Assembly: GCA_964016885.1 (NCBI GenBank)
Contig: OZ024745.1
Span: 16,554,001-16,618,000, forward strand
Direction of reading: 5' to 3'
DNA length: 64,000 nucleotides
DNA from: Eledone cirrhosa
Taxonomy: Eukaryota
Shown piece after piece: positions 2,398 to 58,367 of the stretch (positions within the stretch are counted from its first letter, which is position 1; every line of letters starts with the position of its first letter). The notes beneath the pieces were generated by a model that had not been told where the DNA came from, did not search any database, and was given only the letters and a program-made list of their open reading frames with translations. The position numbers and the translations under genes are program-made.

Positions 2398-2780
2398 AGT
2401 TAAATAAAAGTCAAATGATTAAAATTTAACTTCGTTTATTACTGCTATATATATCAGTGACAGCCATCTTTGGCTGTGACCTCTTCAGGCAGTTTGAGTT
2501 AGTACATATGTTGTTTAGGTGTATAATATTGTCAATACTCTGATATGCCCAGTTCCTTGTTGGGTTGTTATTTCATGACTCCAGTTCCTCATTGAAATAA
2601 CAACCCAACAAGGAACTGGGCATATCAGAGTATTGACAATATTATACACCTAAACAACATATGTACTTGTCTATACCATACTAATTCAAACTGCCTGAAG
2701 AGGTCACAGCCAAAGATGGCTGTCACTGATATATATAGCAGTAATAAACGAAGCTAAATTTTAATCATTTGACTTTTATT

Positions 2781-4822: not shown

Positions 4823-5607
4823 TTGGCAGTATCGGTAGAGGGTCGGTCGCCATGCTTTCCAGCATAGTTACGTCCCTTTACGATCTGAGTTCAAATCCCG
4901 CCGAGGTTGACTTTGCCTTTCATCCTTACGGGGTCGATAAAATAAAGTACCAGTAATGCACTGGGTAATTGCTGGCCCTGTGCCTAAAGTAGAAACAATT
5001 ATTACTGTATGAAGGTGGATTGGCAGTATTGGTAAAGGGTCGGACGCCATGCTTTGACGCATAGAGTTACGGCCCTTGCCATTCTGAGTTCAAATCCCGC
5101 CGAGGTTAACTTTGCCTTTCATCCTTACGGGGTCGATAAAATAAAGTACCAGTAATACACTGGGTAATTGCTGGCCTTGTGCCTAACGTAGAAACAATTA
5201 TTACTGTATGAAGGGCGGTGAATTGGTAGTATCGGTAGAGGATTGGATGCAATGCTTTCTAGCATAGTTACGTCCCATTACGGTCGGAGTTCAAGTCCCG
5301 TCGATGTTAACTTTGCTTTTCATCCTTACAGGGTCGATAAAATAAAGTACCAGTAATGCACTGGGTGATTGTTGGCCTTGGGCCAAAAGTAGAAACAATA
5401 ATTGATGTATGTAAGGACGGTGGATTGGCAGTATCGGTAGAGGGTCGGACACCATGCTTCGCAGCATAGAGTTACGGCCCTTTATGATCTGAGTTCAAAT
5501 CCCGCCAAGGTTAACTTTGCCTTTCATCCTCAAGGGTCGATAAAATAAAGTGCCATTCACGCACTGGGGTCAATTTGATCGACTTTCCCCCCTCCCAAAA
5601 ATTGCTG
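4823..5607 (+). mobile_element. Tandem array of four tRNA-derived SINE copies
   Basis: Units start at about 4823, 5013, 5213 and 5416. Each has an A-box-like tggcagtatcgg, B-box gagttcaaatccc and core ctttgcctttcatccttacggggtcgataaaataaagtacc; the first three end in gtagaaacaat. Confidence 0.9.
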
Positions 5608-12924: not shown

Positions 12925-12960
<36 letters not shown>

Positions 12961-13024
12961 AAAAAAGTTGAAATCGAAAATGCAACTGGAGTCTTTTTTT
13001 TTAAAATATATATTTATTTGGTTC

Positions 13025-13060
13025 CTTTACCGGTTTCGCAGTTCTTCTGCTTTTCAAAAG
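13025..13060 (-). ncRNA. Minimal type I hammerhead ribozyme (U3-A8 variant)
   Basis: Minus strand reads CTT-TTGAAAA-GCAG aagaa CTGC-GAAA-C CG G-TA-AAG: stems I and II paired, palindromic stem III ACCGGT, GUA triplet. Confidence 0.7.
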
Positions 13061-13570
13061 TAGAATACATTATTAATACATAATCCAACGAGGTCTGTTA
13101 CTTGCGCCGAGTGTTTTATATCTATAAAATCACCGATAATACCTATACTTATACACTTATCAATCCATATAGACAGCTATATACCTACAACCTGCTACAA
13201 TATAATAAGGTAAAATGCACCTACAATCATAATTCTTTATTCAATCCTATATATAACATTATAACTCATAATTCAGCCAAATATCCTTTAAATTCTGGAA
13301 TCGTACTACACCATGCCAACAAACTGCTAATTCTCAACATTTCAATCCCACCAAATTCACGCGAATACAAGCATTTCCCCCCTTCTCCCCCTCCCCCACA
13401 CATGCATATATATATATCCTAACAATTATTCAAATCTACCTAGCGTCCGAAAACAACGCTTTTCTCAGCCCCACTCCTCAACCTCATTTGCACACTCACC
13501 CCAACAATTTAAAATATTTGATTCTTCCTCTCCTACCCCCTTTTTCCCTTTACTATCCAGGAAAAACTTG

Positions 13571-13805
13571 AACCGCTAAGATCTCGTTCCTGGATATATC
13601 AATATTTATAAAACAAACCTTGCATTTTATCCGATGAGGATTATAATATCAATGATATTAATAAATGGAAACTATATTTATGAAACCATATTTGTTCTAT
13701 TATATATATTTCAGGGGTACCAAAGCTTTGGTGCGCTCTCATCAGATAAAATGCAAGGTTTGTTTTATAAATAGTGACATATCCAAGAACGAGATCTTAG
13801 CGGTT
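13571..13805. repeat. Palindrome with two convergent HHR-like motifs
   Basis: 68-bp arms at 13571-13638 and 13738-13805. Plus strand CCGATGA...GGAAAC at 13631; minus strand CTGATGA-(accaaagctttggt stem)-GAAA-TATATA-TA-ATAG at 13697-13752. Confidence 0.8.
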
Positions 13806-13873
13806 TATACTTTCACTCCTGTAGCACGCCTCGGTCTTTTTTCATTTTGTAAAAAAACCTTCACTTTCTAATA

Positions 13874-13893
13874 ATATATATATATATATATGC

Positions 13894-13960
<67 letters not shown>

Positions 13961-14154
13961 ATGCATATATATATATATTTGCATGCATGTATATTATATA
14001 TACGTACGTATGTTTTAATATGTGTATATATATATTAGGAATATATATATATATATATACATATATAAATATATTAATCTATATTCGTATATGCATATAT
14101 TTATATACGTATATATAAATATATATATATATATATATACACATATATGTACAT

Positions 14155-14215
<61 letters not shown>
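13874..14215. repeat. (TA)n microsatellite
   Basis: Read directly. Confidence 0.95.
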
Positions 14216-14639
14216 ATATAAACATATACATATAATCCTTATATATCTACATACACATATAATCCAATATCAAATAAGAAAGAATGAAATATACCTTCTT
14301 GGTTAATACATGCGACAAGAAAGCATCACATTAGAATATATAATGACAAAAGCAAATAAAAATAAAACATTTGACAAATTAAAGAATTATTCCCATTCCC
14401 AGGTGAATTCATTATCTCCCGAATAAACGTTTGGAAACTTAATTAAATTTAGCTTTTTTAGAATAAGTCATTATATAAATATTGGTTGATATAGGAATCA
14501 TTGGTAAATTTCAAATTTTGGAAACTGTGCAGCGAAGATAGTGTTAGCTATAACAATAATTGATAACAATAAAAATGAATTGAATAAAGTTGATAATGTA
14601 ATTAACCCTGGAAATGGAAAAAAATATGTGTGCAGTAAC

Positions 14640-14690
14640 GACTGCGGAGAATTGAACCATGTATCTCCTGCATGTCAGGCGAGTGACTGT
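14640..14690 (-). pseudogene. tRNA-like 3' half (Asp-like), degenerate
   Basis: cactcgcctgacatgcaggagatacatggttcaattctccgcag resembles the anticodon and T arms of tRNA-Asp; no full cloverleaf. Confidence 0.35.
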
Positions 14691-14939
14691 ATTTTTAAAA
14701 CTTAAATTTCTCCGGTGTTTCGTAGATCAACGAATCTTATTTAAACTTTCAGCTACACACTTAACGATGCCACATAAACTGTACTTAATGACCAGACCCG
14801 TTTTGGGAAAAATATTTTTAGAAGCTCGGCTGGCATAATATAGACATACGGTTCGATCAACGCAGGCGTCTCTGTTCACTTTTTCCCCTGTCCGTTGGTA
14901 CTTTACCCAACGTGTTCAACTGATATTTATAGATAACTA

Positions 14940-15125
14940 GAATTGGCAGTATCGGTAGAGCGTAGGACGCCATGCTTTCTAGCATAGTTACGTCCCTTTA
15001 CAGTATGAGTTCAAATACCGTGGAGGTTAACTTTGCCTTTCATCCTTACGGGGTCGATAAAATAAAGTACCAGTAATACACTGGAATAATTGCTGGCCTT
15101 GTGCCAAAAGTAGAAACAATTATTA
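14940..15125 (+). mobile_element. tRNA-derived SINE
   Basis: Consensus match including the gtagaaacaattattat tail. Confidence 0.9.
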
Positions 15126-16209
15126 TAGTTGTCTGAATTGTGGCGACTATATATTGAAATTTAAAATGAATATATATGTTTCCCTTGTCTATTCATAAAT
15201 CTCTTGATGATAATATAAAAAAATCTAGTCTGTTACTCACACCTACTTTGTGTTTATATATCAAATATTCGTCTTAAGCTGTGTTTTATTTTGCAACTTA
15301 TGTGTGCTGGGCCCTTGTCGTTACTGATGGTGATTGTATTATTTGTTTGTACAAAGAAATACCTCGCTCATGAAATTAACATGCAATTAGCATGCAATTT
15401 AATCTTAACTCAAATCTTAAGAGGTTTCAGCCTGGTAGTGTGTGAGGAGGCTCACTATTTTGTTGAAAATCTACCCATAGAACTTAATTATTTATTATAA
15501 TCTCGATTTTAACCTCTATACAGAGCTAGTAGGCCCTGACCGACTAATGGAAGTATCTAGTGCCTCTTGTAGTTGAGAAGCAAAAAATCAAGATATACAG
15601 AGATAAGTAAATATAAGTATGACATTAAAAATCAAAAGCAAATAAAGTAAAACAAATATGAAGAACGGAGGATAAATAAGCATAAAAAATATAAAAAGCA
15701 CAGAAAGCTGTAAAGCAGCTAAGAGATGCTGTTGAATCTTTTCCTAACTTCCATGTACTCAATTTGTTAATATACACACACATATATATATATATATAAA
15801 TTGTGTAAAAAGTTAAATTCAAGTAATTAGTATTATTTATTTTTTGAAAATATGGTGTTAAGTTGTATTAAAATTTAAAATACAATTAATAATTTACTTC
15901 TATTTCACCATATATATATATGGAAAACGAAGAATCAGTGATGCAGAGGTACACAATTTATTACGTATTACAAAAGTTCTCCGGCGAACAGCTCGAAGTA
16001 CGATCTGTTTGTGGATCGAACCTGACTCTGGATTCCCAAGTTCCTCAGATACGTCTAAAGATTTCAACAAAAGTACAATTACAACAAACACATATAAAAA
16101 CACACTAATAAACAAAGATAGAATACAAAAACCAAAACACATACACCAAACGCGAACACACATACCAAACATTATACACACACGCAAAGGCATGCGCAGA
16201 GACGGAGAC

Positions 16210-16211
16210 AA

Positions 16212-16266
<55 letters not shown>

Positions 16267-16268
16267 AA
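16210..16268. repeat. (AAAT)n microsatellite
   Basis: Read directly. Confidence 0.95.
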
Positions 16269-16322
16269 TAAAATTGGCGTAAACACTACAATACACCACA
16301 ATAGGAGGAAACATGATAATAG

Positions 16323-16367
16323 TACCACTGATGATGTTGCAGATGTGTAGCGAAAGAACTTTGATAG
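16323..16367 (+). ncRNA. Minimal hammerhead-like motif
   Basis: tacca-CTGATGA-t-GTTGCA gatg TGTAGC-GAAA-gaac-TT-tgata: 6-bp stem II and intact core. Confidence 0.55.
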
Positions 16368-16464
16368 ACTGTATATATATATTTATATCTGTATTGTTAA
16401 CAGTTGGTCAGTCAATGATAAACATTGATTGCCAAATACATTAACTATGGAGATATAAAAGATC

Positions 16465-16542
16465 CATAAGCGAAAACCAACCAAACAGTTATATTATTAT
16501 TTCTGGCAATATTATTACAACAATATGACCCTCCCCAAGTAT

Positions 16543-16548
<6 letters not shown>
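16465..16548. repeat. Fragment of the palindrome family seen at 63.6 kb and 27.3 kb
   Basis: aagcgaaaaccaaccaaacag...atatgacccctccccaagtataacaatat is nearly identical to 63642-63729 and also ends in (TA)n. Confidence 0.75.
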
Positions 16549-16641
<93 letters not shown>

Positions 16642-16700
16642 GGTTCTGCGATAGGATGACCGAAAAAACCACAAGTAGCACTCGATACGTGGTGTTTCTG

Positions 16701-16779
<79 letters not shown>

Positions 16780-16786
<7 letters not shown>

Positions 16787-17638
16787 TGTATAATAAAAAA
16801 TACAGTATAATAACCTCATTACCAGAGCTTTCCCGAATAAGACGGATACAAGAAAAGTCTGCATTCGTTCGTCAGACAAGGCAATTTAAGACATAGTGAA
16901 ATATTTGAAAAATCTCCTCAAGAAAGGCTAAAAGTTTGACGAGCAAAAAATAAATAAAAGTAATGATACAAGAAATGTATAAAAAATAAAAATAAAGAAA
17001 TATAGTAAGGGGATGTGTGTAAATGTGTGTATATGCACATACATATGTACATATGTACATGTGTGTGTATGTACAGCTGCATGTGTATAGTGAAAAAATG
17101 TGTGCGTAAGTATATACATGAGGGCAAACATATTAGGGTATGTGTGACCACAAATACATATATATATATATGTTGAAAATAGAAATTGTAAGATAATGGA
17201 GTTAGCGTACATACAGTCTCAGGGACTAGGGCTGAAATATTTACACATAAAGGATGAAAGGACGCACGCGTATAAACATACACACACGCACAACAGGGAA
17301 GGGAGTGTATAAAGTCAACGCAGACGGAAGGTCGATACGGAAGGTCGATACAAATATGAAATATGAATATATGAAATAATATATAAGATAAGAATAAAAA
17401 AATGAAGGCAAAAAGAAAGTAAGTAGGAGGGGTTATAATATATAAAGTAACACTAGAAACAATAAATAAAAAGGAGAAAATATGCATATACGCGAACAAG
17501 CTCATACACACTTACATATAAATATATATACATACAGACAAAAACATGTGCACAAAAGCATACATACACATACACGCATACATACATATACACGCATACA
17601 TACATACATACATACATACATATACACGCATACATACA

Positions 17639-17672
<34 letters not shown>

Positions 17673-18256
17673 CATATATATACATACACACACGCGGCCA
17701 CATATGTATATATAAGTATATATATATGTGAAAACACATATACATAAACGCACACACACACTTGCACACATACACGCACACATACGAATGCGTTCGTATA
17801 CATATACAAACACGTAAACACACAACATACATACGCATACATACATATATAAAAATCAACCGTATGAATAAATGGCTACAAAATATACGCAAGTATACAT
17901 ACATAAAATGGCTGATGGACAACGGAAAATATCTGGAGTTAAAAATACAAGTGACATGTGATGTCTGGTAGTGAAAGTAAAAGGGTGAAGTAAAATAAAT
18001 GTAAATAATGTATAATTGTTAAGGTATAAAGCTAATGAATCAAATAGCAGGGGGTGGGGGGTGGATGTAAAGTAAAAATAAAAGATAAGTAAAGCTGAAT
18101 GAGAAGTCTATAAAGAAGGTAAGTTAAGGAAAGTAAAGAACAAGAGTATATGGAGGATAAGTGTTATGGAGGTTAAGTTTATATGAGGTGGAAAGCAAGT
18201 GTGATTTCATGTGTGGGCAACAGGTGAACATTTCTGTTTTTGCATTTAGGCAGGTT

Positions 18257-18260
<4 letters not shown>
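16780..18260 (-). mobile_element. Penelope-like element 3' fragment (endonuclease C-terminus, tail, HHR-like motif)
   Basis: 18255 to 18193 translates TCLNAKTEMFTCCPHMKSHLL (PLE GIY-YIG C-terminal LN-x-R/K-S/T-E...C-x-H motif). CTGACGA-a-cgaat...attcg-g-GAAAGCTC at 16875-16825, then AATAAA and (TA)n. Confidence 0.5.
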
Positions 18261-18327
<67 letters not shown>

Positions 18328-19410
18328 GTACATATAGATATTAATTTAATCATATGGAAAATAACTCTTCTCAACTTAATGTTTTTGGGCTTCTATAATA
18401 TTTTACCGACGAAAACCTCCCACCCAACAAAACAAATAATTACAAAATAACAGTTTGCTATATCGCCGTTGTAAGATGACTTATACCAACATCTGGCTGT
18501 CATCTGTCTAAGAAATATCTTCAGTAGAAGTGTTAACCTGATATAGCCCTTTCCTGACGCTCTTTTCTTATTAGTTGTGTATTTGACAGTAATTAAACTG
18601 GCATCTCCTTTCCAGCCGATATTATCTTCCTTTGCTGTTTACATTTAAATTTGGCAAAATGCTTATCGTCTAGGAAGATATTTTTTCTTTTAGTTTAAAT
18701 GCTATTTTTTGTGTCAATTTTCAACTCAAAGTTGTTGTTTCTTTTAACTATTCTGGAATAAATATGATCAAATATCAGCAGAGAAAAATAACAAAAGCAA
18801 TGCGTCATATCTGCAAAGATATGCAAATTTATCTTTATAGTTTTTTTTAATATACACCAGACTCGATGTTTTAATACTTTCCAAATTTTTATAATTGTAT
18901 GTCTCGTTTTTTTTTATATAATTCATTACATTCTATAATGTGAATTTTATTATGTTTGTTAGTGTAACTTCACAACTCATGGTACTTCTTTTAGAAGTCA
19001 ATTATTAAATCAGAGTAGGGAAGCAACATTTCTATTGGTATTTCTATTGCTGATACTATATGTTGGTTGCAACAAATGACAGAATGAGTAACGCGAAATA
19101 AAGGAGTACAACGACCAACCCGATTCAAGAGTCGAACCCACGTCCATACGTACGTCCAACACACTAGGTCCCGTGCTTCTTTATAATACACAGTGATTCG
19201 GAACACCAACCTTTAATATATAAAGATATTCTTTAAAATGTTTTGCAAACCTGGAAAATATTAAGAAAACTAAATGAAAAGGCCTTAAAATACGCAACCT
19301 GTTAGATTCCTGAAATTCACTATTTAACATTCTGATCTCTTGACATGGATATCTTTACTCTACATCTTCATTACATTTTCTAAAATCTAAACATAATCTA
19401 AAATATTCTC

Positions 19411-19467
19411 AAATTTAAACGCTCCGAGTACATTGGAAGATTCAATGCTCTCGGAGCGTTTAAATTT
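19411..19467. repeat. Short hairpin palindrome
   Basis: aaatttaaacgctccgag..cattg / caatg..ctcggagcgtttaaattt. Confidence 0.8.
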
Positions 19468-20484
19468 AAACTAAAGCAATCTAGTACTGATGTCAATCAA
19501 TTAATTATATTTATGAATTTTAAAATCTCAATACGACTTTTATGAAACATACATACACACATTTAAGGGGTTCATAGGCAGGAATGACATGTGAATATAT
19601 AACTCATTCATAGATATGGATATTATACCTTTTAGATAGGCTGAGAGTTAAGTAAAATTTGTGTAGTTCACGGCCCTCTAGGATTAACCATTTTAATGCC
19701 CGTTTATTACTACAAACATGTTTCAGATTTCGTATCGAGAGAAAATAAATCCTCTCTGAATATTAGTCGATATTATATCATCATCATCATCGACATCATT
19801 ATTCTCAGTCATTATTTGTCCCTTGCAAAGCGAATTCTTTCATTAAGAGACAACTTATTTCCTCTATCTTGCACAACTCTCATCCATGTAGTGCTTTTAG
19901 ACTTATAAATCGCATATTGTATCAACGACTTTTGAAGGGATTCGTAATCCACTCAGTATCAGAATCATGATACTGACTATAGAATGTGGCGCAAAAGTGG
20001 CGCACCAGTAAAATAACACTTTGCTGTAATATCTTCATATTTCTTATTTTTGGAAATAAATGCGATAATTGTTCATAAGGTGATGATTTGAGTGGTGCAT
20101 GGCTTTTGCGCCACCCTATATATGACAAATGTTCTCCCGTATCACGAAGACAAACCAACTATGACCTACCAAATGAAATACTATTAATCAGTTATTAATA
20201 TCACATTTAACAGAAGTAATTAATCACATTAAATTAATAATTTAACAATATATTCCTACACGATCACGCACCATGCTAGAAATAGCAGCAAAACTTCTTC
20301 CAAATTATATGCAACAGTTTTAATAAACGAGAAGCATGCTGTAGAAGGAAATTGTAGAGGTTTGTCAACATTTCTATATTCCTACAAGTCTGTACATTTT
20401 CACATATATTATTTCATCTCTACTTCGATTAAAGATGTTTCACTAATGCGATGGCCAGCGTTGTCTCCATAATCCTTCTTCTTC

Positions 20485-20961
20485 TCTACTTCTTCTTCAC
20501 CCACTTATTCCTGAGAAGGTCGTAGGGGTAGAATTCTTAAACACCCCTTCCAGTGGTTCCTGTCACAAGCAATCAAATCCAAATGATCTGGCTGGATCCC
20601 CAAGGGAGATCAGCCGAGCTCATGGATGTTATCCAACCATCTTGCTCAGGGCCTACACCAGGGTCTCCTGCCGGCTGGTTTTTCTGTCATCGATGTTATC
20701 CAACCATCTTGCTCAGGACCTACACCGGGGTCTCTTGCCGGCTGGTTTTTCTGTCATCGATGTTATCCAACCATCTTGCTCAGGACCTACACCGGGGTCT
20801 CCTGCCGGCTGGTTTTTCTGTCCAACGATTCTTTCCGGATGCATTCTAACCACATGCCTGTAGTATCGGAGCTGTGATCTCACAATTCGGAAAAGAAGTA
20901 GCTCTAACTCTACCTTGAGCGACACTCTGAACTCCAAGATATGCACTCTATCGAGTAACAT
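20485..20961 (-). mobile_element. RTE-clade LINE 3' fragment with internal ~66-bp triplication
   Basis: SQLRYYRHVVRMHPER...PAGKRPR motif and (GAA)n tail; gatgttatccaaccatcttgctcagg recurs at about 20626, 20692 and 20759. Confidence 0.75.
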
Positions 20962-22169
20962 TACTACAAAAGCAATTCAGATTAACCCCATATATTCATC
21001 TATTTGAAAGTATTTTAACTGTGACGCCTTATCTTCCTTTTCCTGACACATATAAAGATTGTGACTCCAATGATGGTAATGACAGTAAAATTGAAATAAT
21101 TTTCGCTACTGTTGGTTTTTCCCTGTTCGCTAAGCCAAAATCTTTATATGTGTCGTGGAAAAGATGATAGGGCATACTTACTAATTGATGATTACTAGAC
21201 ACACAGAAATGCGTAGATGAACGCATGGTTCAACACCATACACGGATTAAAAAATTCCAGTCAACACAAAAAGGGAATTAGTATGGTTGGACAAATAAGA
21301 AAGCTTCTAGTATGTATGTGAGGGTGTGTCTAAATATATGGAATAATGTGTTTTTTATATTTTCATTTATATTTGTTTGAAACGAGAGAGAAACAATAAA
21401 GAAAAACAAAGAAAAACAAATCAAAAGAATTGAAATTGAGTTTCCAGTAATAATTTAAGACAAAATAGCTTTTTGTCTGTACAATTATATATTCCGGAAA
21501 ACGTATAATTTTCACTTCTAATTTGCATTTTGGAACTTTTGTTCAATAGAAGTCAATATTCTCCGATTTCAGAGTTGACCAAACTGGCTAGACACAACAA
21601 ATTGCTAGCAAATATAGCTAACTTTTATGGTTTCACTCGCACAGAATATCGAATCTCCTATAACTTCTTAAATAATTTCTTACTTTTTAATTTCAGAAAT
21701 TCTTCTTTAGATTTTAATTTAACGTGTAATATATATAGTTGAACCACAGTGGACAGAAGTTAATTGGAGTAATACTGCTACCTAACACTTATCAGCAATA
21801 ACTCCGACAGAATCCTTATAATATTTGAAAAAAGAAGTATTTTGTTTCATGTTCTTTACAACGAAATCATATATGTAACCAAGTTGGAAATCAAAGTTGG
21901 TCAATAAAAATAGTTCTATTTAAAGTTTCCAAAGATAGAATTGGACAGCGTAATCGAATTTATTTTATATTTCTCTTATATTTCGATTCGAAATCGAGGC
22001 CATTACACTTCATTTCTATTTGTGATGCACACGTCTCATATTTTCACTTACCTGAAATAAAAACTTTGAAGATAATTAAAAAGAAATGGTTGTTTAGATG
22101 TGTGAGTGTTAAATATGGTTCAGTGGTTGATAGGTTTGAGGGATGAGGTCGATGCAGTAGATTACATGC

Positions 22170-22360
22170 ATGAGTGGTTGACCCCGAGCAAGATGGTTGG
22201 ATAACATCCATGACCTTGGCTGTTCTCGCTTGGGGATACAGCCGGACCAGTAGGAGGCGGTTATTTCTGATATGATCTGCTGGAAGGAGTGTTTGATGAC
22301 TCTGCCCCAACGACCTTCTCAGGAATGAGTGAGTGAAGAAGAAGATGAAGAAGAAGAAGT
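22170..22360 (+). mobile_element. RTE LINE 3' end (same family as 20485-20961)
   Basis: gagcaagatggttggataacatccatga...gaccttctcaggaatgagtgagtgaagaagaag. Confidence 0.7.
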
Positions 22361-22746
22361 GCTAAATATGACACAGTAGTTTACGAGTTTGAGTGCTGTG
22401 GTCGGTAGAATTGTTTATATAAGTGAGTGTCAGGGATGACACAGTATGTCAGTAATGTCATAATAGTTTAGATATTTGACTACTTGGGATGATTTGTGTA
22501 AATTCAGGAGTAGGGTGGCAGTGTTCAGACGAAACGGTTAATAGGGCTTAAGAAAAGTTAAAAACATTTGATTATATCTTTCCTTTTAATATGTTCTCAG
22601 AAAAATGATTGCTTTGTTCCAAAATGTAAATGGGAGATTTTTAGGAAAACGTGTTTAACTTTCGACAATAATGAATAAACAAATATTGATCATTTCCGCA
22701 GAGTGAGAAGAGAATACGATATAAAATACATTCCATTATCACCAGG

Positions 22747-22937
22747 GGTGGTGGATTGGCAGTATCGGTAGAGAGTCGGACACCATGCTTTGAAGCATAG
22801 AGTTACGTCCCTTTATGATCTGCGTTCAAATCCCGCCGAGGTTAACTTTGCTTTTCATCCTTACGGGGTCGATAAAATAAAGTACCAGTAATGCACTGGG
22901 TAACTGCTGGCCTTGTGCCAAAAGTAGAAACAATTAT
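22747..22937 (+). mobile_element. tRNA-derived SINE
   Basis: Consensus match. Confidence 0.9.
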
Positions 22938-23324
22938 CTATGATATGAGATAAATGTAAAATAGGAGAACTGACCACATGAATTTATCTCCTTCTTTCAA
23001 AAATCGACTCTATCAACTTTAGATATATTGTAGATGAAAAATGATATGTAAGATCCACATCTGATAAGTGAGAATTAACATTTATATACTTTAGAATATA
23101 AGAATAATTAACCACATGGGAAGTCAATTCTGAGAGAAAATTGGCATCAACTTTTGATGCACCTAATAAACAGGCTTTCATATATTTAAACTTCCTTATC
23201 GATAAAGAAACTTACGGCATAAATTAACCCCAGTGGTATTATATCATTTAATTGAATAACCTTATAAGTCAGTATGATTAATTCAGGTCTAAACTTTTTC
23301 CGAAGTCTTTTATAAGTTGGATGT

Positions 23325-23380
<56 letters not shown>

Positions 23381-23386
<6 letters not shown>

Positions 23387-23455
23387 TAAAATAACAGATT
23401 AAAGTTTAAGCAAAGAATCGCTGCTTTCACCCTTAACGGGATCTTCTGAAACTAA
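23381..23455 (-). repeat. PLE-like terminal fragment with degenerate HHR (family of 63742-63855)
   Basis: atttattaaaataacagattaaagtttaagcaaagaatcgctgctttcaccc is shared with 63741 onward; minus strand cagaaga-tccc gttaa gggt-gaaa. Confidence 0.55.
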
Positions 23456-23545
23456 CAAAGTCAATCTGTAAACGCAGAAGTGAATATTTCAAAAAACGTT
23501 GCAACCGGAGGAAGACAGGAAGACGATACTTTGGTTCGTGGAAAC

Positions 23546-23808
23546 GTTCCCTGGCAAAGAACGGGAAAAAACGAATATAACACGTCATTATTTGGAGCGG
23601 TGAAAAACAATTACACGCAAAGACAAAACCACGTTTATGGTATAAAAGAAGTCGTAGACTAATATTCTATTAGGGGGTTCATAGAGATGTTCTCTGGCAA
23701 TGAACGCGAAAAACGAAGATAATACGTCATATGTGGACCGTGGAGAAAAATTGCACGCGAAGACAAAACCACGTAAATGGTATAACTGAAATCGTAGACT
23801 AAAATTCT
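23546..23808. repeat. Imperfect direct duplication, ~120-bp units
   Basis: gttc(c/t)ctggcaa...agacaaaaccacgt..atggtataa...tcgtagactaa.attcta occurs at 23546-23669 and 23689-23808. Confidence 0.8.
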
Positions 23809-24479
23809 AACTAGGAAACCGAATGATTCTCGGCTTCAGAGTTAAGAATAAAGTAAATAAAATACAGAGGTAAATGAAATTAAATAAATACATACACGCA
23901 TACGTACATACACAAGCATACGCGAAAACACTCGCCATAGGTATACAAATACACGCACGTACACAAACCCCCCCCCCAAAAAAAAACCGCACGCAAATAC
24001 AGAACCCACGCAACGCCTGTACCCGCACGCATACGAATGTATACACCAAATACACATAAAAATATATATAAAAAAAAATATATATATGTGTGTGTATACA
24101 TATAATTAAATAAACGTATATAAATAAATAAATACGTATATAACAAGCGTACACACATACCTACATGTAAATACACTTATGTTCGGAGACTACGTCAACC
24201 AAAATACGAAGTACACATATACACACACCCTACATACGTACGAACCTGCATACTCACACAGACGCAAAACTCACCTATACACATAACCAAAAGCATATGT
24301 ACCAGAAAAAATAATATATACGCCATAACATATACAAACAAATATACGTACGAGAAAGTATACGTACCTTCACAAAACATACATATATATGTGTGTGTGT
24401 GTGTGTGTGCGTGTGTGTGTGTATGTGTGTATAAATAAACACACACATAAAGACACACACATATATGTAAGCCTCTTTC

Positions 24480-24760
24480 ACCCGCACCATCTAACAGCTG
24501 ATACAGAAACTGTTGCGCTGAACCATCTCCACCCTGTCTGGACGTCCTCAGTTTGATCAGGAAATTCTCTGAATTTGGATGCAATAGTATCTGCATACCT
24601 TATCCACCAAGGCCTCACACTTTATCCTGTAGCTCGCTCTGGATCTGCCGGTTTTCTGTGCTTCTTTGGCTTTATGTATTCTCAAATTGCAGATAACTAG
24701 ATGGTGATCAGTTAACAGCTCAGCCCATCCCTTAACGCGAATATCTCGCACAGAATCAAA
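24480..24760 (-). mobile_element. LINE AP-endonuclease C-terminal fragment (RTE-like)
   Basis: DIRVKGWAELLTDHHLVICNLRI matches the APE S/TDH motif. Confidence 0.65.
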
Positions 24761-25496
24761 TAAAGCTATTTAGGTAAATAGTCCCTGGGTAAGCTGTGAT
24801 ATTTAACGAATTGATATTGCAAATCGTATATCAATCTAATTACTGTTGAGTTAGCGTTGTGACAGTGTAATATATCCGCAATTCAAGGTGATGTGTAAGT
24901 ACGATATGTCTTATTGGGTTATTTAGATGACTTGCCTTGAAGCTGAACCCGCTGTTTTCTTTAAGGAACTAGCTCTATCGGGTAATACATTGGAGTGAGA
25001 ACTAGTTGATAGTGCGAATACGATGCAAATAGCGAGAATGTGTAAACGAAATTTAGCAGCTGAAATGAGAGTCAGTGTCATAGTTTAGGTGGTAAATCTC
25101 TACGGTTACATATCTGTACCATTTCCCATCAAACACTCAATCCACCAGGAGTGCCGCTGCCTCTCATCACCGCTGAGAGCTTTGCCACTCAAGCCACTGC
25201 TGTGAAATCGGAAGATCTTGAGGGTGGCTTCACGTTGGAGCTAATGCACAGAACTGTGTTTGGATATGTAAAGAACGTTAATGTTATGGCGTTATGTATA
25301 TCAATAGTAAAGGGCATGGATCATAAAAAAGAGGAACGTTAAGACTGAATTCATTAGTTTTAGTAAGGTTCTTGAGCAAGAGATTAATACGTGCTTTACC
25401 TATTTTGCAATGCATTTCATCCCAGTGTTTTGTGTTGCTTACAGAATTTCTAAGAACGTCTGATGAGCATGTACTTTACATAACTCCCTCTAAAGT

Positions 25497-25765
25497 CTTT
25501 TGCGTGTCCTGAGTCTCATCAGGCCGGTACGTATCCCAGTTTCCGTGACCTGAAGTGACTGACAGTACAATACTCCTCATGGACAAGACACCAGTCCTTC
25601 ACAGGGTTAAACCCCCAGCTATTGCTCGTACTCATTTTTAGCTGAATATACTACAGCAACGTGATATTAAGTGTTTTACTCAAGAAAACAACCCAGTCCA
25701 GGAGTCGAACCTACGACATTATGATCATAAGTGCAATACCCTTACTTGAAGATCACGCGTCTCCT
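25497..25765 (-). mobile_element. Old tRNA-derived SINE of a second family
   Basis: Reverse B-box ggagtcgaacc, a ttaagtg..ttactcaag core block, and tail ggacaagacaccagtcc. Confidence 0.55.
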
Positions 25766-26803
25766 CACTTTAAATAACTGGTGTACATTATTTGTTATTT
25801 AATGATAGAATCAGACTTTTTTTTATTATACAGATTATAGTTTGGAGTTGTTATATTGTTTGAGAGAGTTAACGCATTGAAACCACAAAATATTCTCTCT
25901 GTATTTCATATAAGAGTAGACTGGGTAAATAAGTACTAGACAAAGTACCGCATCGATATTATGTACTAAAGTCAGTAAAAAAGACTAAAATGAGATTAGT
26001 GAAATAGTTTGTATGGTAGACAGGTTTTAAAGGTTTAAAACGAAAACTGCTATTGGTGATTTGAAGTCTGCTCTCGAAATAATTTGGTGAAATATGGACG
26101 AATGAAATAAGTCTCTAATGGGTCTTTTATTACCAATACCATCGTGTTGTTAAACTAAAATTCCTCTGAATTAGCAACAAGAAAGTACGATAAATATATT
26201 TCCCCATTCTGACTAATATAATATATCAGTAACTCTAAAGAATATATCTTAATATCCCCTAGAGGCATCGAAAACCAAGTGTTCATATTAAAATGTTATT
26301 TCTGCTAAAAGGAACTTTTCAAGAGTGAAGAATATATTATCGTTCATCTTATTTGCTGAGATAGAAGAATGAAAACAAAGTGAGGCACCTGTCACAAACA
26401 TATGCAGAAAAGTAAACGTGAAAAATACACCTTCGTGTATCTGTCATAAAGGTAAGCGCAGCATTCCAAACTTCTTAATTCATTTACTTTTCTCAAAGAA
26501 GCCAACCAAAATCTTGTTAGCATTTCCACATATCTTACTTGCTGCCAGAGAGAACTACTATTTCCCTTTGTTTACATTCGTTGACTATTGTTATGAAAAT
26601 CATGAAAGTTATGTTTGTACTATGTGTTTAATTATTATGATTGATAACAACGTAGCTGTAAGGAATATAACGTTGATATAAGTGTGTGCTCCAAACAGCG
26701 AATAACATTTAAATGCGGGAGACTAGGAGTATCTTAAAATTATATTTCTTTTTCGGAAGAGATTTCTTACAATACAGCATAGAGATAATAAAAACTTGAA
26801 ATA

Positions 26804-27079
26804 CAGTGGGACCTTGGTTCACGAAGGGTGTCTCCGTTAACGAAAACGCAAGCCGGTAACAACGTTTGGTAACAAGTTTGGTGTATCGGCGGGAAAGTGT
26901 CACTTGCTGTGTAGTTAGTTACTATGTTGATATATATATATGTCTTTCACAAACATTTCTCTCACACTGTATATCTCTCTCAACATTTCTTATTGAGAAA
27001 AAAATTTCGAGTTACTAATATTTTGGGTGACGAACGATTATTTAGAAACGAATTAAGTTCGTGAACCAAGGTTCCATTG
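26804..27079. mobile_element. Tigger/pogo-like (Tc1-mariner) MITE, 276 bp
   Basis: 22-bp TIRs cagtgggaccttggttcacgaa / ttcgtgaaccaaggttccattg with 2 mismatches; TA on the left flank only. Confidence 0.7.
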
Positions 27080-27259
27080 CCTAACAATTCACAAGTATAT
27101 AAGAGATGAACTAACACACAATTAAAAACATACACGCACATGCACACATAAACACACACACAGACATATACATACAAATATATATATATATATATATATG
27201 TATCGTTTCTGAATTTGTTTAGCAAGATTTTTTTATCTGAAAACGTGTGTTGAAACCGA

Positions 27260-27712
27260 TATTGTTATGCTTTGGGACGGTCATGTTGCCAATAAGAAAC
27301 ACACGCACCAGTTGCTTTCACTCCAATTTATTATAAATTAAATTCATAAATTTAAGAATTTATAAATTTCCGCTTGGTTGGTTGGTTCCACAACCGGACG
27401 GTTGTTCATATATTGTCAAAGTTCTTTCGTCCCACATTATGTGACCTCTTCAGTGACTGGGGATTCTTTTCTTTGTTTTTGTGCCTCTCCCTTGTTCTGT
27501 CCTATGCCTTCTTCATGGCGTAGGACGGAACAAGGGAGAGGCACAAAATATATGAACAATATATGAACAACCGTCCGGTTGTGGAACCAACCAACCAACC
27601 GGAAATTTTTAATTCTTAAATTTATAAATTTAATTTATAATAAATTGGAGTGACGCTTCTGGTGCGTGTGTTTCTTATTGGCAACATGACCCTACCAAAG
27701 CATGAACAAATA
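27260..27712. repeat. Fold-back palindrome, ~155-bp arms
   Basis: 27260-27416 is the reverse complement of 27556-27712; (TA)n on both sides. Confidence 0.85.
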
Positions 27713-27729
27713 TATATACATATATATAT

Positions 27730-28067
27730 ATATTAATGAAAAAGAACAAAGGAACTATTATGACATTATAACAAGTTTATTGTCGACAGCCGTTTCGTCC
27801 GACCATATGGTGGGACTTTTCAGGGCATATAAGATGTGATTGTAAGTTCATTATTTACATCAACGTTTCACTCAAGATTAGCAGTTTGAAATTGTTGTAT
27901 ACATCAGCAGCTCCGCTTGTATATTTGGGGTCCATATTCTAAGGGGGCTCTTAGGGCCCCCTTAGAATATAGACGGTCGGACGAATATAGATGGTCGGAC
28001 GAAACGGCTGTCGGCAATAAACTTGTTATAATGTCATAATAGTTCCTTTGTTCTTTTTCATTAATAT
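27730..28067. repeat. Fold-back palindrome containing a hammerhead
   Basis: Arms at 27730-27806 and 27991-28067; internal hairpin atattctaagggggc/gcccccttagaatat at 27934-27970. Confidence 0.85.
27781..27827 (-). ncRNA. Minimal hammerhead-like motif (G8->A, uncompensated)
   Basis: TGCC-CTGAAAA-GTCCCACC atat GGTCGGAC-GAAA-C GGCT G-TC-GACA; the right-arm copy has GGCA, which restores stem I. Confidence 0.6.
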
Positions 28068-28169
28068 TTCTGCTCTGCTTATACGCATAGAGCTTAACTA
28101 GCTACCGTCGCATATTTGGTAGGTCAGGCGTGATCATCGCGATTCACATACGACCTACCATACATCTTG

Positions 28170-28217
<48 letters not shown>

Positions 28218-28219
<2 letters not shown>

Positions 28220-28913
28220 TAGAATTGGTGCTCTGAAATAGCTATATATATATGAATGTATATATATAGTGTATTTTGCAATACACTGTATGCTTAATTA
28301 AAAGCATTTCGAAGACCTTATGCTATTGTTTTAGAGTAGTGACAGTCTCACTTACTTTATTTTTCAGCAAACAGGGGAGATAAAGCTGACAGATACCTGT
28401 TTCGCATTTTTTGATGCTTATGAAAGCTAACTACTCCTCCTGTTTGCTGAAAATCATGGATGTTTGATTCTTATAGAATTCTAGTAAATAATCAGCAACT
28501 GATTATACAGAGCGGTTGCCGGTCAAGCAGAAATTGAAAATTAGAATTGGTGCTCTGAAATAGCTATAAATATATGAATGTATATATAGTGTATTTTTCA
28601 ATACACTGTATGCTTAATTAAAAGCATTTCGAAGACTTTATGCTATTGTTTTAGAGTAGTGGCAGTCTCACTTACTTTAATTTTCAGCAAACAGGGGAGA
28701 TAAAGCTGACAGTGCCCTGTTTCGCATTTTTTGATGCTTATCAAAGCTAACTACTCCTCAAAAAAACCGAAACAGGGCTCTGTCAGCTTTATCTCCCTTG
28801 TTTGCTGAAATTTAAAGTAAGTGAGACTGTCACTACTCTAAAACAATAGCATAAGGTCTTCGAAATGCTTTTAATTAAGCATACAGTGTATTGCAAAATA
28901 CACTATATATACA

Positions 28914-28920
<7 letters not shown>
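28218..28920 (-). mobile_element. Tandem plus inverted pLTR-like repeats (Penelope-like arrangement)
   Basis: Direct copies at 28218-28439 and 28539-28759, inverted copy at 28769-28920; both ends abut (TA)n; each direct copy holds an HHR motif. Confidence 0.8.
28704..28748 (-). ncRNA. Type I hammerhead ribozyme (U3-A8 variant)
   Basis: AGCT-TTGATAA-GCAT caaaaa ATGC-GAAA-CAG ggca CTG-TC-AGCT: all three stems pair, GUC triplet. The copy at 28384-28428 has G5->C. Confidence 0.72.
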
Positions 28921-28986
<66 letters not shown>

Positions 28987-29148
28987 ATATATATATATTT
29001 AAAAGAATAGAGGTATAACACACGAGTTATGATATATTGGTAAAAGGAAAAGAAAATGCTGACAATTGTTCCCAGTGTAAAATAGTTTAATTAGGAATAA
29101 GTAAAAATTAGTAATAGTATAGGTTAGTATTCAGTTTTGGTTTTAAGT

Positions 29149-29185
29149 TTTTACCGGTTGCGCATTTCTAATGCTTTTCAAAAAT
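29149..29185 (-). ncRNA. Degenerate hammerhead (same type as 13025-13060)
   Basis: ttt-TTGAAAA-GCAT tagaa ATGC-GCAA-CCGG-TA-aaa; GAAA is mutated to GCAA. Confidence 0.5.
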
Positions 29186-29536
29186 AATTTTGAGATAGAG
29201 CGCCCGTGATGTTTGCTCTAATCTGATTAGTTTTGGAAATTCTACCTGTTTTATGTAAAAAAAAGTGGTTCCACATGTATGAAAATATTCTTGTGGTCAA
29301 AACAATTTTGATTGGTCGGTAGAGGTCATGTGAATGTTAAAAATTGATTTTGCGCCAAATGTAGGTTTTTCTCGGCTGATTGAGAAGTCACTGAAAAATA
29401 AGTCTTTCAAGACAAATATGTGTGTGTGTGTGTAGTAGTAGTAGTAAAGAGGTTCGTTGTTGTGATAATGGTCAGCAGGGATGTGTGTGCGAACCGCAGC
29501 CTGCTGACAGGTCAACAGTTCAGATGTCGATTAAGA

Positions 29537-29663
<127 letters not shown>

Positions 29664-29772
29664 CAGAGTAATTCGTGGTAGAGGGATCGGTCAGTAGGAA
29701 TGTGTCTATACGTGTGTGGGGATATTTTAACATGTTAAAAGATATTTTTCAGCTTTTGTCTTATATGGAGAA

Positions 29773-29804
<32 letters not shown>

Positions 29805-30055
29805 TTCTTTGTATGTTAATGTACGCGTGTGTATGTGTGTGTGTATATATATGTGTGTGTGTGTGTGAATGTGTGTGTATGTGTGGGTGGACCAGTATTT
29901 TTGTGGTACTGGTAAATATGGTGTACATTATTCGATATTTTCAGTAAAAACGATTCTCTCAATAGAACATCAACAACCTTAATAATAAAAGGTGTGAAAT
30001 GATATATAGTATTGGCATAAGACCAAGGTGTGTGTGAGTATCCAGAATGTACGTA

Positions 30056-30101
<46 letters not shown>

Positions 30102-49150: not shown

Positions 49151-49819
49151 AGTAATAATCGTTGAGTAATTTAAGATATATATATATGGGGTATAATGAG
49201 AAACAGACAGAAAACAGAATTGACGATTATGAAGAGTAAGTAAAAACTTTTTAGAAAAACATCTCATAATTTAGTACGTTTTTTCTGAATAAATGTGTTT
49301 CATTTTATCTATGTCAATAACTGTGCGATATACTTGAAACGCGCTTTATTTCACAACATAGCAATATTGTACTTCCGTAGTATACATATATTTCACCTAT
49401 GTTATCAAAGTATTTATTAACTCTACAGATATTTATGGATAGCAGGTTAGTATATTTCTATGGCAATATGTTGAAATGATGTGGGATCTAGAAATTTACT
49501 TGTCACTCTCACATATTATATATCACTCTTTGCTTTAGCAATACAATTTGTGGTATAGAATACGTAAAGCCTCCAAGGACAATTTCTAAACAGGGTATAT
49601 TAAATCGATTGAAACTTTAGAAACTGACGAATGATGCATACAAACGTCAAAATATGTGCATACATACATGAATAGATATATGCACACAGCAACATACATG
49701 TGTGTGTGTGTGTATCTATCTGGATTCGGTGTCGTAATCCATGTATGTACAATATATTACAGAAAAACAGTGTGCTAGAATGGTTGGATGAGTTAAATTT
49801 AGGAGTGATGTCGAGTAAA

Positions 49820-50150
49820 ATGAATACTGTATGTGCTGGCCTCTCCACAGCCCTGCCGAACAGGATGGAGAAGGCGTTTCCCCGGAGGATGATAAGGGAG
49901 ATGCGCTGGAAGAGCCATTTAAACTCGCGAGGCTCACACCTGCCGCTGGCCAGCTCAGCGCCTATGGTGGTGAATAGGGAGGTATCCCTATGACCAAGGA
50001 CACCAGAAGTCTCCACTGCCAAGGACACGACCGCGAACCTGTCGGAGAGCGACCGGTACTTGGAGAGCTTAACCTCTTCACCCCGACGCGCAGCAGTACC
50101 TGGGTTTGTCGAGGACTGCACCTGGTTGCGGCTGCAGAAAGTGTCACTGC
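49820..50150 (-). mobile_element. CRE-like non-LTR restriction-like endonuclease C-terminal fragment
   Basis: AARRGEEVKLSKY...VSLAVETSGVLG...WLFQRISLIILRGNAFSIL. Confidence 0.7.
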
Positions 50151-50229
50151 AAAGGCAAAGTTATAAACTATTGTAAATAAACCTATTTAAAATATTAAAA
50201 AAATATATAATAATAATAATAAAAATAAT

Positions 50230-50336
50230 AATAATTGTTTCTACTTTTGGCACAAGGCCAGCAATTACCCAGTACAAGGATGAAAGGCAAAGTTAACCTC
50301 GACGGGATTTGAACTCCGTCGAGGTTAACTTTGCCT
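50230..50336 (-). mobile_element. Truncated SINE with fold-back 5' end
   Basis: aggcaaagttaacctcgacgg-gatttgaact-ccgtcgaggttaactttgcct forms a perfect 21-bp stem. Confidence 0.85.
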
Positions 50337-50360
50337 AATAATAATAATGATAATAATAAT

Positions 50361-52826: not shown

Positions 52827-52845
52827 TAATAATAATAATAATAAT

Positions 52846-53094
52846 TCAAAGTGGTCGCGATTGTCATAGGTGCACTAGGTACTATCTCAAAGAGTTTCCA
52901 AGGATGGCTAAAGAAAATTGGTCCCGCCCCGCTTTTTGGAACACTTCAAAAGCATGCTTGCTGGGAACAGCAAGAATTCTCCGATACGTCCTGAATATCT
53001 GAGACTGCAGGTAGTGGCTCGATATTCGTTTCAACAAACTTTCCAGTTAAATAACATCAATGCCTGAGACTCAAAGAGCAATAATAATAATAAT
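52846..53094 (+). mobile_element. Dong/R4-like non-LTR 3' fragment
   Basis: KVVAIVIGALGTISKSFQGWLKKIG...ACLLGTARILRYVLNI*, then a 3'UTR; embedded in (AAT)n. Confidence 0.75.
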
Positions 53095-53322
53095 CATGCT
53101 TTCTTTATTAACCACAAGGGTTGACACAAAGTAGACATTAAGGACAACACAGGGCAATACAAATGGGGATTTCTACGTGTAAAAAAAAACAAAAACAGAT
53201 TGACAAAATTCCCAATAGGGGGGATACCTCTGAGGGTTGCTCGTGGAGAAAGCCCACAAGAAAGGCCACGGTTACTCTGACCGATAGGGTAAATGCCCTA
53301 TTCCAGTTTTCCTGCTACAATA

Positions 53323-56262: not shown

Positions 56263-56899
56263 GTTGGCTAGGATAGGAGGAAAACAAGTGAGAGAAGAGA
56301 AGTACAAAAATTACCTGTGACTCTTTTTTAGGAAGGGGGTGTGTGATCCATCCCTCCGACCATTGGTGGGTTTCACCACGAGAATGTCCAATGGTGATGT
56401 TCCCTCGGTAGTCTCTAATTGATGTGGGGAACATTTTTTTTAATGTTATGTAATTTTTTGTGTGATTTCTATTATCTTTATGTGGGGGTGGGTGGTGGCG
56501 GGCGCGTGCAATTTTGGTGGTTTGTACGTAGTTTGTTTCTGTGCTGTTGGTGTGGTGTTAAATGTAATTTAAAAGCTTTGTATTGTCTGTGTCTATGGCT
56601 GTGTATTGTGTCTGCTGCTGGGGTGTTGGTGCTTTCTGTGTTTGCTGTGGTGTTGTTGAAGGTGACGATGGGGTAGATGCTAAGGGTGGCGGTGGTGGTG
56701 TTGGTGGTGGTGGTGGTGATGGTGTAGGTGGCTGTGGGGTGTGGCTGTTGATGGTGGTGGAGGAGGTGGGTAGTTTCCTTTTCCTTTTTTTGGGGGTTCT
56801 TTCTTCCTCTTTTTTTTGGGGGGGGGGGGGTAGGGAGCGCTTCCTCTTTTTGTTGAAATAGTTCTCCATTCTTCGGCCTCATCGCACTCCTTGTCCAAT

Positions 56900-58140: not shown

Positions 58141-58367
58141 GTTTTTTTTTCAAAACAAAATTTTGGGGGGTATGATTGTAAATAAATACAAATTTAGCCC
58201 TCAAGAGCGCGAGATACAGTTAAAAAACCATCTCCTTTGAAAGAGGGGTTCTTTAACTATACACCGATGTAAAAAATAGTATATAGAACTTTCGATAACT
58301 CAGAAAAATTCAACTAGCTTACTCCGCCGTAGTTACTGCCGTCTCATAATAATAACAACAACAAATA

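What the first reader, a model, noticed from the sequence alone, without database searches (positions are those of the whole stretch)
13025..29185. Compensatory U3-A8 core pair in unrelated hammerhead motifs
Three motifs read UUGAAAA (13025-13060, 29149-29185) or UUGAUAA (28704-28748) instead of CUGANGA. C3 and G8 form a Watson-Crick tertiary pair in active HHRs, and U3-A8 is a known functional swap. Both changes occur together with intact stems; stem II also covaries between the 13-kb and 29-kb copies (GCAG/CUGC vs GCAU/AUGC). This suggests selection on ribozyme structure rather than random decay. Searches fixed on CUGANGA would miss these.
Basis: partly seen in the sequence, partly recalled or inferred. 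Interest (0 to 1): 0.75.

Follow-up and report, generated by a model that had tools for sequence, protein, structure and literature searches.

The report
Variant hammerheads in three mobile repeats
The three motifs are copies of hammerhead-ribozyme sequences from three abundant mobile repeat families that all carry an already published U-A core pair; self-cutting is only predicted, and one family spread to over 4,000 copies with a further core change that likely weakens cutting.

Summary
Real, mostly known. All three U3-A8 motifs are at the stated places (minus strand), and U3-A8 is the family state, not decay: 16,410 genome matches against 81 C3-A8, 44 U3-G8 and 2 C3-G8. They are not all unrelated. 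The 13-kb and 29.1-kb motifs are ends of two sister Neptune/Nematis-type Penelope-like retrotransposons (families A, C). The 28.7-kb motif belongs to a 320-bp tandem retrozyme-like repeat (B). B has a C3-G8 sister lineage, and its stems show double changes between lineages, so selection on the fold is well supported there. That makes at least two origins of the swap, not three. Natural U3-A8 is in print (Perreault 2011; Cervera 2014, with the same UUGAAAA and UUGAUAA cores), and this scan noted it before on other DNA of this genome. A13 changes are reported to slow cutting 10-100-fold, so C likely multiplied with an impaired ribozyme. No cleavage or RNA data were available; a cut-site footprint test was modestly positive for A and inconclusive for C.

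The parts
13025..13060 (-). Family A minimal type I hammerhead motif: U3-A8 core (U3 13057), stem II GCAG/CUGC, GAAA, palindromic ACCGGU, predicted cut between 13028 and 13027, 3-bp stem I
   Evidence: 14,141 genome matches to the family pattern
12954..13060 (-). 5'-truncated 3' end (pseudo-LTR piece) of Penelope-like family A, ending in a (TA)n run
   Evidence: 91% identity over 112 nt to the end of full-length copy L124
13804..13891 (+). Tail piece of family A on the opposite strand
   Evidence: 90% over 88 nt
28704..28748 (-). Family B type I hammerhead motif: U3-A8 core (U3 28744), stem II GCAU/AUGC, GAAA, 4-bp stem III with tetraloop, GUC site (predicted cut between 28708 and 28707), stem I AGCU/AGCU
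   Evidence: Rfam HH9 27.2 bits, below cut-off
28440..28760 (-). One full 320-bp unit of the retrozyme-like repeat B
   Evidence: tandem arrays of the unit elsewhere, e.g. G000:C14:23499015-23508239
28217..28439 (-). Second, partial tandem unit of B; its hammerhead (28384-28428) carries a private G5-to-C change
   Evidence: 95% over 223 nt; sequence; most laid contigs keep G5
28758..28927 (+). Inverted, 5'-truncated arm of B starting at the GAAAC box, ending in a (TA)n run: the fold-back layout typical of Penelope-type insertions
29149..29185 (-). Family C minimal hammerhead motif: U3-A8 core (U3 29181), stem II GCAU/AUGC, GCAA box with C13 (29160), palindromic ACCGGU, stem I of three A-U pairs
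28991..30056 (-). About 1.1-kb 5'-truncated 3' end of Penelope-like family C, ending in the same (TA)n run as B
   Evidence: 87-95% identity to full-length copy L194

Best explanation
The three motifs are inherited hammerhead sequences of three mobile repeat families, two sister Penelope-like retrotransposons (A, C) and a 320-bp retrozyme-like repeat (B), whose source elements were fixed for U3-A8 before they multiplied; the swap likely arose at least twice and was likely kept by selection for RNA self-cleavage in A and B, while C likely spread with a weakened ribozyme. Shown: family membership, copy numbers, core states, the hammerheads in both pseudo-LTRs of full-length A and C elements, and the C3-G8 sister lineage of B. 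Inferred: B transcripts from tandem units would be cut at each GUC into about 320-nt monomers (possibly circularised) and be copied back by a Penelope-type enzyme into (TA)n; B's 4-bp stem III should allow cutting as a monomer, with its near-palindrome allowing a dimer. A's minimal motif would cut after GUA only as a dimer through ACCGGU (5' and 3' pseudo-LTR, or two RNAs), probably slowly or with protein help. The swap is two transitions (C to U, G to A), likely through a U-G wobble step that left no amplified lineage here.
For: Counts on the GCA..UGC stem II background: U3-A8 16,410; C3-A8 81; U3-G8 44; C3-G8 2, both in other sequence contexts. Full-length A copies have a 409-aa frame, a 775-aa frame with RT and GIY-YIG matches, and the motif at both ends; C has a homologous frame about 52-56% identical in the best-preserved copies, broken in those fetched, and the motif at both ends. 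B: C3-G8 relatives are 82-85% identical over the unit and fall on one side of a 100/97 branch, with one C3-A8 copy, in a tree made without the ribozyme (67 of 78 rows). On one stem II background 3 and 8 go together (Fisher p 5e-11 on copies, but this is one event). In 107 B copies 93.4% of cells pair and 8 of 15 pairs have changes on both sides. In A, 5' ends are most frequent exactly at the predicted cut (23 of the first 100 of 382 rows) against at most 10-15 of the first 100 of 234 rows at a control stretch (hand tallies; p 0.0002-0.004). U3-A8 is reported as natural and active in vitro (PMC3088659).
Against: No cleavage assay and no RNA run. Copies count inheritance, not events: there is one 3-8 swap in B and one at the base of A/C, and both changes are the commonest kind (C to T, G to A), so a single compensated pair is weak proof by itself. 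The 107 B rows were picked by patterns that fix part of the core, so leans towards the structure; the number of pairs with double changes did not beat its shuffle control (103 of 500). In an all-pairs mutagenesis of a type III hammerhead only G3-C8 rescued (PMC9901934). The cut-site excess in A is only about 2-4-fold, neighbouring positions are also raised, 2 of 10 such rows checked were duplications rather than ends, and C shows a similar nominal excess (14 versus 7 rows, p 0.016), which either means C still cuts or that the signal is not cleavage. No C3-G8 sister lineage of A/C was found (one or two single copies), so that swap is inferred from the universal core only. No helper enzyme for B was identified.
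Confidence: 0.78

Rival explanations
1. U3-A8 is AT-biased drift in ribozymes that no longer matter; the source elements happened to carry both changes and multiplied regardless.
For: Both changes are GC-to-AT transitions in a genome stretch of about 30-35% GC. Family C shows that a core change can be carried to 4,415 copies. Hammerhead mutants did not affect insertion by a Penelope-like enzyme in vitro (PMC11167929). U3-A8 was not rescued in one mutagenesis set.
Against: In B, double changes between lineages go in both directions (U-A to C-G at stem II pair 2 and at stem I pair 1; A-U to G-C in stem III), which AT drift does not give. No amplified lineage with a 3-8 mismatch was seen (125 of 16,537 single-change copies; 1 of 100). 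The youngest A subfamily has a 4-bp stem I where the older has 3.
Confidence: 0.12
2. One U3-A8 hammerhead module arose once and was passed between the Penelope-like elements and the retrozyme by recombination, so all three motifs share one origin.
For: B and C have the same stem II (GCAU/AUGC) and the motifs align at 80% over 30 nt; retrozymes are proposed to derive from Penelope pseudo-LTRs (bioRxiv 10.64898/2026.07.22.740005).
Against: B reaches GCAU/AUGC in steps inside its own family (GUAC/GUAC with C3-G8, GUAC/GUAC with U3-A8, GCAC/GUGC, GCAU/AUGC), keeps stems I and III of its C3-G8 sister, differs at position 7, and has no similarity to A or C outside the motif.
Confidence: 0.05
3. All three motifs, including C13, are active ribozymes in the cell; A13C is a tolerated natural variant, perhaps rescued by the element's protein.
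For: Every other core position, stem II and the ACCGGU palindrome are kept across several successive C subfamilies. A13 changes reduce but do not abolish cutting (10-100-fold; PMC4075628). A nominal excess of C ends near the cut site. A Penelope-like hammerhead was found to need protein.
Against: C's stem I is three A-U pairs and its predicted fold pairs the stem II strand with upstream sequence instead (one copy). Only 2 of 5 checked C rows at the cut position were true ends. C is young in sequence (end branches about 2%), so retention of the other positions may only reflect little time.
Confidence: 0.25

Closest known systems
Minimal hammerheads of metazoan Penelope-like elements, U3-A8 variant of Schistosoma mansoni Cercyon (Cervera and de la Pena 2014, PMC4209133; main text parts 1-2 of 4 and supplement passages read)
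   Same: Type I minimal motif in both pseudo-LTRs, palindromic stem III, short stem I, mostly truncated single or inverted copies; U3-A8 core with about 1,300 hits; the supplement lists UUGAAAA and UUGAUAA cores.
   Different: Here no extra base between A9 and stem II, a 4-bp stem II, a Neptune/Nematis-type host with two frames, over ten times more copies, and a sister family fixed for C13.
Natural U3-A8 hammerheads (Perreault et al. 2011, PMC3088659; passages and section 8 read)
   Same: C3-G8 covaries to U3-A8 in nature and was said to be active in vitro.
   Different: No lineage series within one family; the variants named in section 8 include A6C, U13a and U15.1-A16.1 but not C13.
Animal non-LTR retrozymes (Cervera and de la Pena 2020, PMC7229834, passages read; Li et al. 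bioRxiv 10.64898/2026.07.22.740005, part 1 of 5 read)
   Same: Non-coding tandem units of 150-450 bp, low GC, one type I hammerhead per unit, linked to Penelope-like elements.
   Different: B has a U3-A8 core, a 4-bp near-palindromic stem III, and fold-back insertions in (TA)n; RNA circles were not tested here.
Neptune/Nematis clades of C-terminal-endonuclease Penelope-like elements (Craig et al. 2021, PMC8557442; passages read)
   Same: RT followed by GIY-YIG, CX2-5CxxC linker, tandem and inverted insertions, microsatellite targets.
   Different: Clade not fixed by a tree here; A has a separate 409-aa upstream frame with no Pfam match.

Membership tests
Type I hammerhead ribozyme | Core N3-UGA-N-N8-A ... 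GAAA ... UH with a Watson-Crick 3-8 pair | tested here: met
   Families A and B: U3-A8, GAAA, GUA or GUC
Type I hammerhead ribozyme | Intact G12-A13-A14-A15.1 box in family C | tested here: not met
   C13 in 4,415 of 4,501 matches
Type I hammerhead ribozyme | Three stems supported by covariation | tested here: met
   Family B: 8 of 15 pairs with changes on both sides in 107 pattern-selected copies. For A/C only one stem II pair differs between the families
Type I hammerhead ribozyme | Rfam gathering score | tested here: not met
   B 27.2 bits against 52 (HH9); A and C not among the 150 rows shown
Type I hammerhead ribozyme | Self-cleavage at the predicted site | not testable with these tools
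   No assay; no RNA run listed; genomic end footprint modest in A, unclear in B and C
Penelope-like element minimal hammerhead | Motif in both pseudo-LTRs of an RT plus GIY-YIG element | tested here: met
   A: L119, L123, L124; C: L194, L197
Penelope-like element minimal hammerhead | Short palindromic stem III implying a dimer | tested here: met
   ACCGGU in A and C
Neptune/Nematis Penelope-like clades | C-terminal GIY-YIG preceded by a CX2-5CxxC linker | tested here: met
   Seen in the 775-aa frame; Pfam GIY-YIG above cut-off, RVT_1 just below it; definition
Neptune/Nematis Penelope-like clades | Placement in an RT tree with reference elements | not tested
   No reference sequences were at hand
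Non-LTR retrozyme | Non-coding tandem units of 150-450 bp, each with a type I hammerhead | tested here: met
   320-bp units in dimers and an array of more than 25 units; no frame of 120 aa or more there
Non-LTR retrozyme | Expression as linear and circular monomer RNA | not testable with these tools
   No RNA holder listed

The most novel reading that the evidence does not exclude
One genome holds a natural experiment on why Penelope-like elements carry hammerheads: a family with an intact U3-A8 core and many open, near-identical copies (A), a sister family that multiplied past 4,400 copies after a core hit at A13 (C), and a retrozyme that walked from C3-G8 to U3-A8 with every stem repaired (B). 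The ribozyme is then dispensable for the autonomous element but under tight selection in its non-coding parasite.
Probability: 0.5. Interest if true: 0.5.

Novelty: new member of a known kind. Interest (0 to 1): 0.3.

Why it matters
The headline variant is known, so it matters mainly as a reminder that CUGANGA-fixed searches miss more than 20,000 motifs in this genome (16,410 plus about 4,400). The more useful part is the A/C contrast: the role of hammerheads in Penelope-like elements is stated to be unclear (PMC8557442) and dispensable in vitro (PMC11167929). A sister pair differing at one core position, and a retrozyme series with matched C3-G8 and U3-A8 versions on the same stems, give ready-made constructs to test this.

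Tried and rejected
Expression: no RNA holder listed; two unlabelled runs laid as contigs showed only that the repeat is present; neither bears on expression or cleavage. Folding energies: not informative. Rfam: no match at cut-off. A C3-G8 sister lineage of A/C: not found; 99 matches to a C3-G8/ACCGGU pattern are mostly another family, and two A-like copies (L274, L275) are single, one of them at a rearrangement. An amplified U3-G8 or C3-A8 intermediate: not found (a run of C3-A8 copies about 9.6 kb apart on C1 looks like a local duplication and was not fetched). An older A13 lineage of C: 11 A13 copies need 9 changes on a tree, no better than shuffles (79 of 500), though four sit unresolved near the base. 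Cut-site footprints as a way to tell A from C: inconclusive; one control pattern was set in the wrong register and only counted intact copies (15,016), another was swamped by a 3-base deletion variant; for B about 6 of some 18 end-like rows among the first 100 of 207 lie at the cut, too few to judge (hand tally). Copies starting at the cut next to (TA)n: 24, confounded by TA microhomology. Single origin of all three motifs: rejected (see rivals). Three papers sought were not held (Lunse et al. 2017, two look-ups; a review recalled as Nelson and Uhlenbeck 2008, one look-up).
Full report
Observation. All three motifs lie on the minus strand. A (13025-13060): UUGAAAA, stem II GCAG/CUGC, GAAA, palindrome ACCGGU, A17, 3-bp stem I. 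B (28704-28748): UUGAUAA, GCAU/AUGC, GAAA, 4-bp stem III, C17, stem I AGCU/AGCU. C (29149-29185): UUGAAAA, GCAU/AUGC, then GCAA instead of GAAA, ACCGGU, A17, stem I of three A-U pairs. A strict descriptor gave 2 hits (3 with one mismatch) against 0 in each of 60 shuffles. Folding energies were not clearly better than shuffles, and Rfam gave only a sub-threshold hit for B. The window belongs to a 3.0-Gb animal genome; the species was not established.

Family state. With stem II fixed as GCA..UGC followed by GAAAC, the genome holds 16,410 U3-A8, 81 C3-A8, 44 U3-G8 and 2 C3-G8 matches; the two C3-G8 hits have unrelated flanks. So U3-A8 was present in the source elements, and single changes occur at the level of copy decay. 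These counts measure inheritance, not independent events.

Family A. Copies are mostly short 3' pieces, often as fold-backs, ending in (TA)n. Upstream lies a GIY-YIG frame. Of 16 long loci fetched, 13 carry a 775-aa frame (one more has 791, one 842 and one 668 aa); three (L119, L123, L124) show the full layout of hammerhead, 409-aa frame, 775-aa frame and hammerhead over 4.7 kb. The long frame matches RVT_1 (just under cut-off) and GIY-YIG and has the CX2-5CxxC linker that marks Neptune and Nematis elements. The window's motif is a 107-bp remnant of this end.

Family C. It aligns with A at 73% over 122 nt including the motif, and its coding remnants are about 52-56% identical to A's long frame in the best-preserved copies. 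So A and C are sisters and share U3-A8 by descent; 'unrelated' is wrong for this pair. C13 is the family state: 4,501 matches, of which 86 have another base (hand count 46 T, 27 A, 13 G). In A only 61 copies deviate from A13. C13 stands in both pseudo-LTRs of full-length copies and across several subfamilies; the 11 A13 copies placed on a tree are scattered, with four unresolved near the base (55 C rows). No fetched C copy had an unbroken long frame (20 loci). A passage in PMC4075628 gives 10-100-fold inhibition for changes at A13 (it cites earlier work that I did not see). I did not find a natural C13 variant in three searches of the held library; the supplement of PMC4209133 has 14 'GCAA' strings of which I saw 2, both in flanks, and the paper and supplements of Lunse et al. 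2017 could not be seen, so absence from print is not established.

Family B. A 320-bp non-coding unit found as dimers, fold-backs and long arrays; in the window it is a tandem pair plus an inverted arm next to (TA)n, and the second unit has a private G5 change. A tree from 170 bases downstream of the ribozyme (67 of 78 rows; 11 U3-A8 rows dropped at random) puts the 16 C3-G8 rows and one C3-A8 row behind a 100/97 branch. Stem II runs AUAC/GUAU, GUAC/GUAC, GCAC/GUGC, GCAU/AUGC; stem I has AGCU/AGCU, GGCU/AGCU and AGCC/GGCU; stem III varies symmetrically. In 107 copies 93.4% of cells pair against 86.1% in shuffles and at most 48.4% in slid controls; 8 of 15 pairs change on both sides, a count that 103 of 500 shuffles reach. 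The rows were chosen by patterns, so these figures lean towards the structure, and the innermost dimer pair is unpaired in 35 of 107. Direction (C3-G8 to U3-A8) is inferred from the near-universal core; the tree has no outgroup.

Is there a trace of cutting? Following earlier notes I asked whether copies begin at the predicted cut. In A the cut position is the mode: 23 of the first 100 of 382 rows, against 12 and 18 at the neighbours and at most 10-15 of the first 100 of 234 rows in a control stretch (hand tallies; p 0.0002-0.004); 8 of 10 such rows inspected were true ends. In C the nominal excess is similar (14 rows of the first 100 of 184 against 7 of 77; p 0.016) but only 2 of 5 inspected rows were true ends. 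B has too few rows. Stalling of reverse transcription at the palindrome or AT microhomology could give the same pattern, so this is weak support for A and does not separate A from C. No RNA run was listed.

Mechanism. Shown: the families, their cores, their layouts. Inferred from the known families: B multimers would be cut to monomers and copied back by a Penelope-type enzyme; A would cut only as a dimer; C likely cuts poorly. At least two origins of U3-A8 (B; ancestor of A and C). Selection on the fold is well supported for B, plausible for A, doubtful for C.

Known work. PMC3088659 (passages, section 8) reports natural U3-A8 and prior activity in vitro. PMC4209133 (parts 1-2 of 4, supplement passages) reports U3-A8 in Schistosoma Penelope-like elements, found precisely because the first descriptor missed it, with the same core strings. 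PMC9901934 (passages) found only the G3-C8 swap to rescue in a type III hammerhead. PMC11167929 (passages) found hammerhead mutants not to affect insertion in vitro and the ribozyme to need protein. PMC7229834, PMC8557442, PMC6765202 and PMC6155905 were read as passages, and the bioRxiv preprint as part 1 of 5. This scan has noted U3-A8 motifs before, on other DNA of this genome and in other genomes; a look-up for A13C met no note.

Verdict. Real feature, new members of known kinds. Interest 0.3, carried mostly by the C13 family and by the matched series in B.

Noticed in passing
window 13567-13809: A fold-back of about 240 bp between the two pieces of family A; the minus-strand arm has a CUGAUGA core followed by a possible stem II and GAAA, the other arm a changed core. 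Probably another truncated Penelope-type or retrozyme insertion.
   Followed up: no
window 2446-2488 (-) and 2695-2737 (+): Inverted pair of CUGAAGA motifs with a long stem II region and GAUA for GAAA, flanking a perfect hairpin at about 2526-2642. May belong to the rearranged-hammerhead families that other notes of this scan describe.
   Followed up: no
L124:853-2079 (+): Family A has a separate 409-aa frame upstream of and overlapping the RT-endonuclease frame by 88 bases, in another frame, with no Pfam match; family C has a homolog. Suggests a frameshift, an intron or a two-frame layout.
   Followed up: partly
L244-L271, e.g. G000:C1:14076716-14076750: Another repeat family with a C3-G8 core, an extra U after A9, and GAAACCGGUC; most of the 99 matches; no similarity to A or C.
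   Followed up: partly
L201, L208, L213, L274: An older-looking A-like subfamily with U3-A8 and stem II GCAU/CUGU (G-U at the base of stem II), possibly CpG decay.
   Followed up: no
L164-L193: The commonest C3-G8 lineage of B has A10.1-U11.1 in place of the usually conserved G-C, a double change.
   Followed up: partly
G000:C14:23499015-23508239: Array of more than 25 B units alternating among a few variants, as from rolling-circle copying or tandem amplification.
   Followed up: no
window 49600-57634 (-): Broken non-LTR retrotransposon frames (RT, endonuclease-like and gag-like pieces) of at least two elements; family names not tested.
   Followed up: no
window 4823-5568 and 58364-58749: Tandem copies of a 199-207-bp SINE-like unit.
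   Followed up: no
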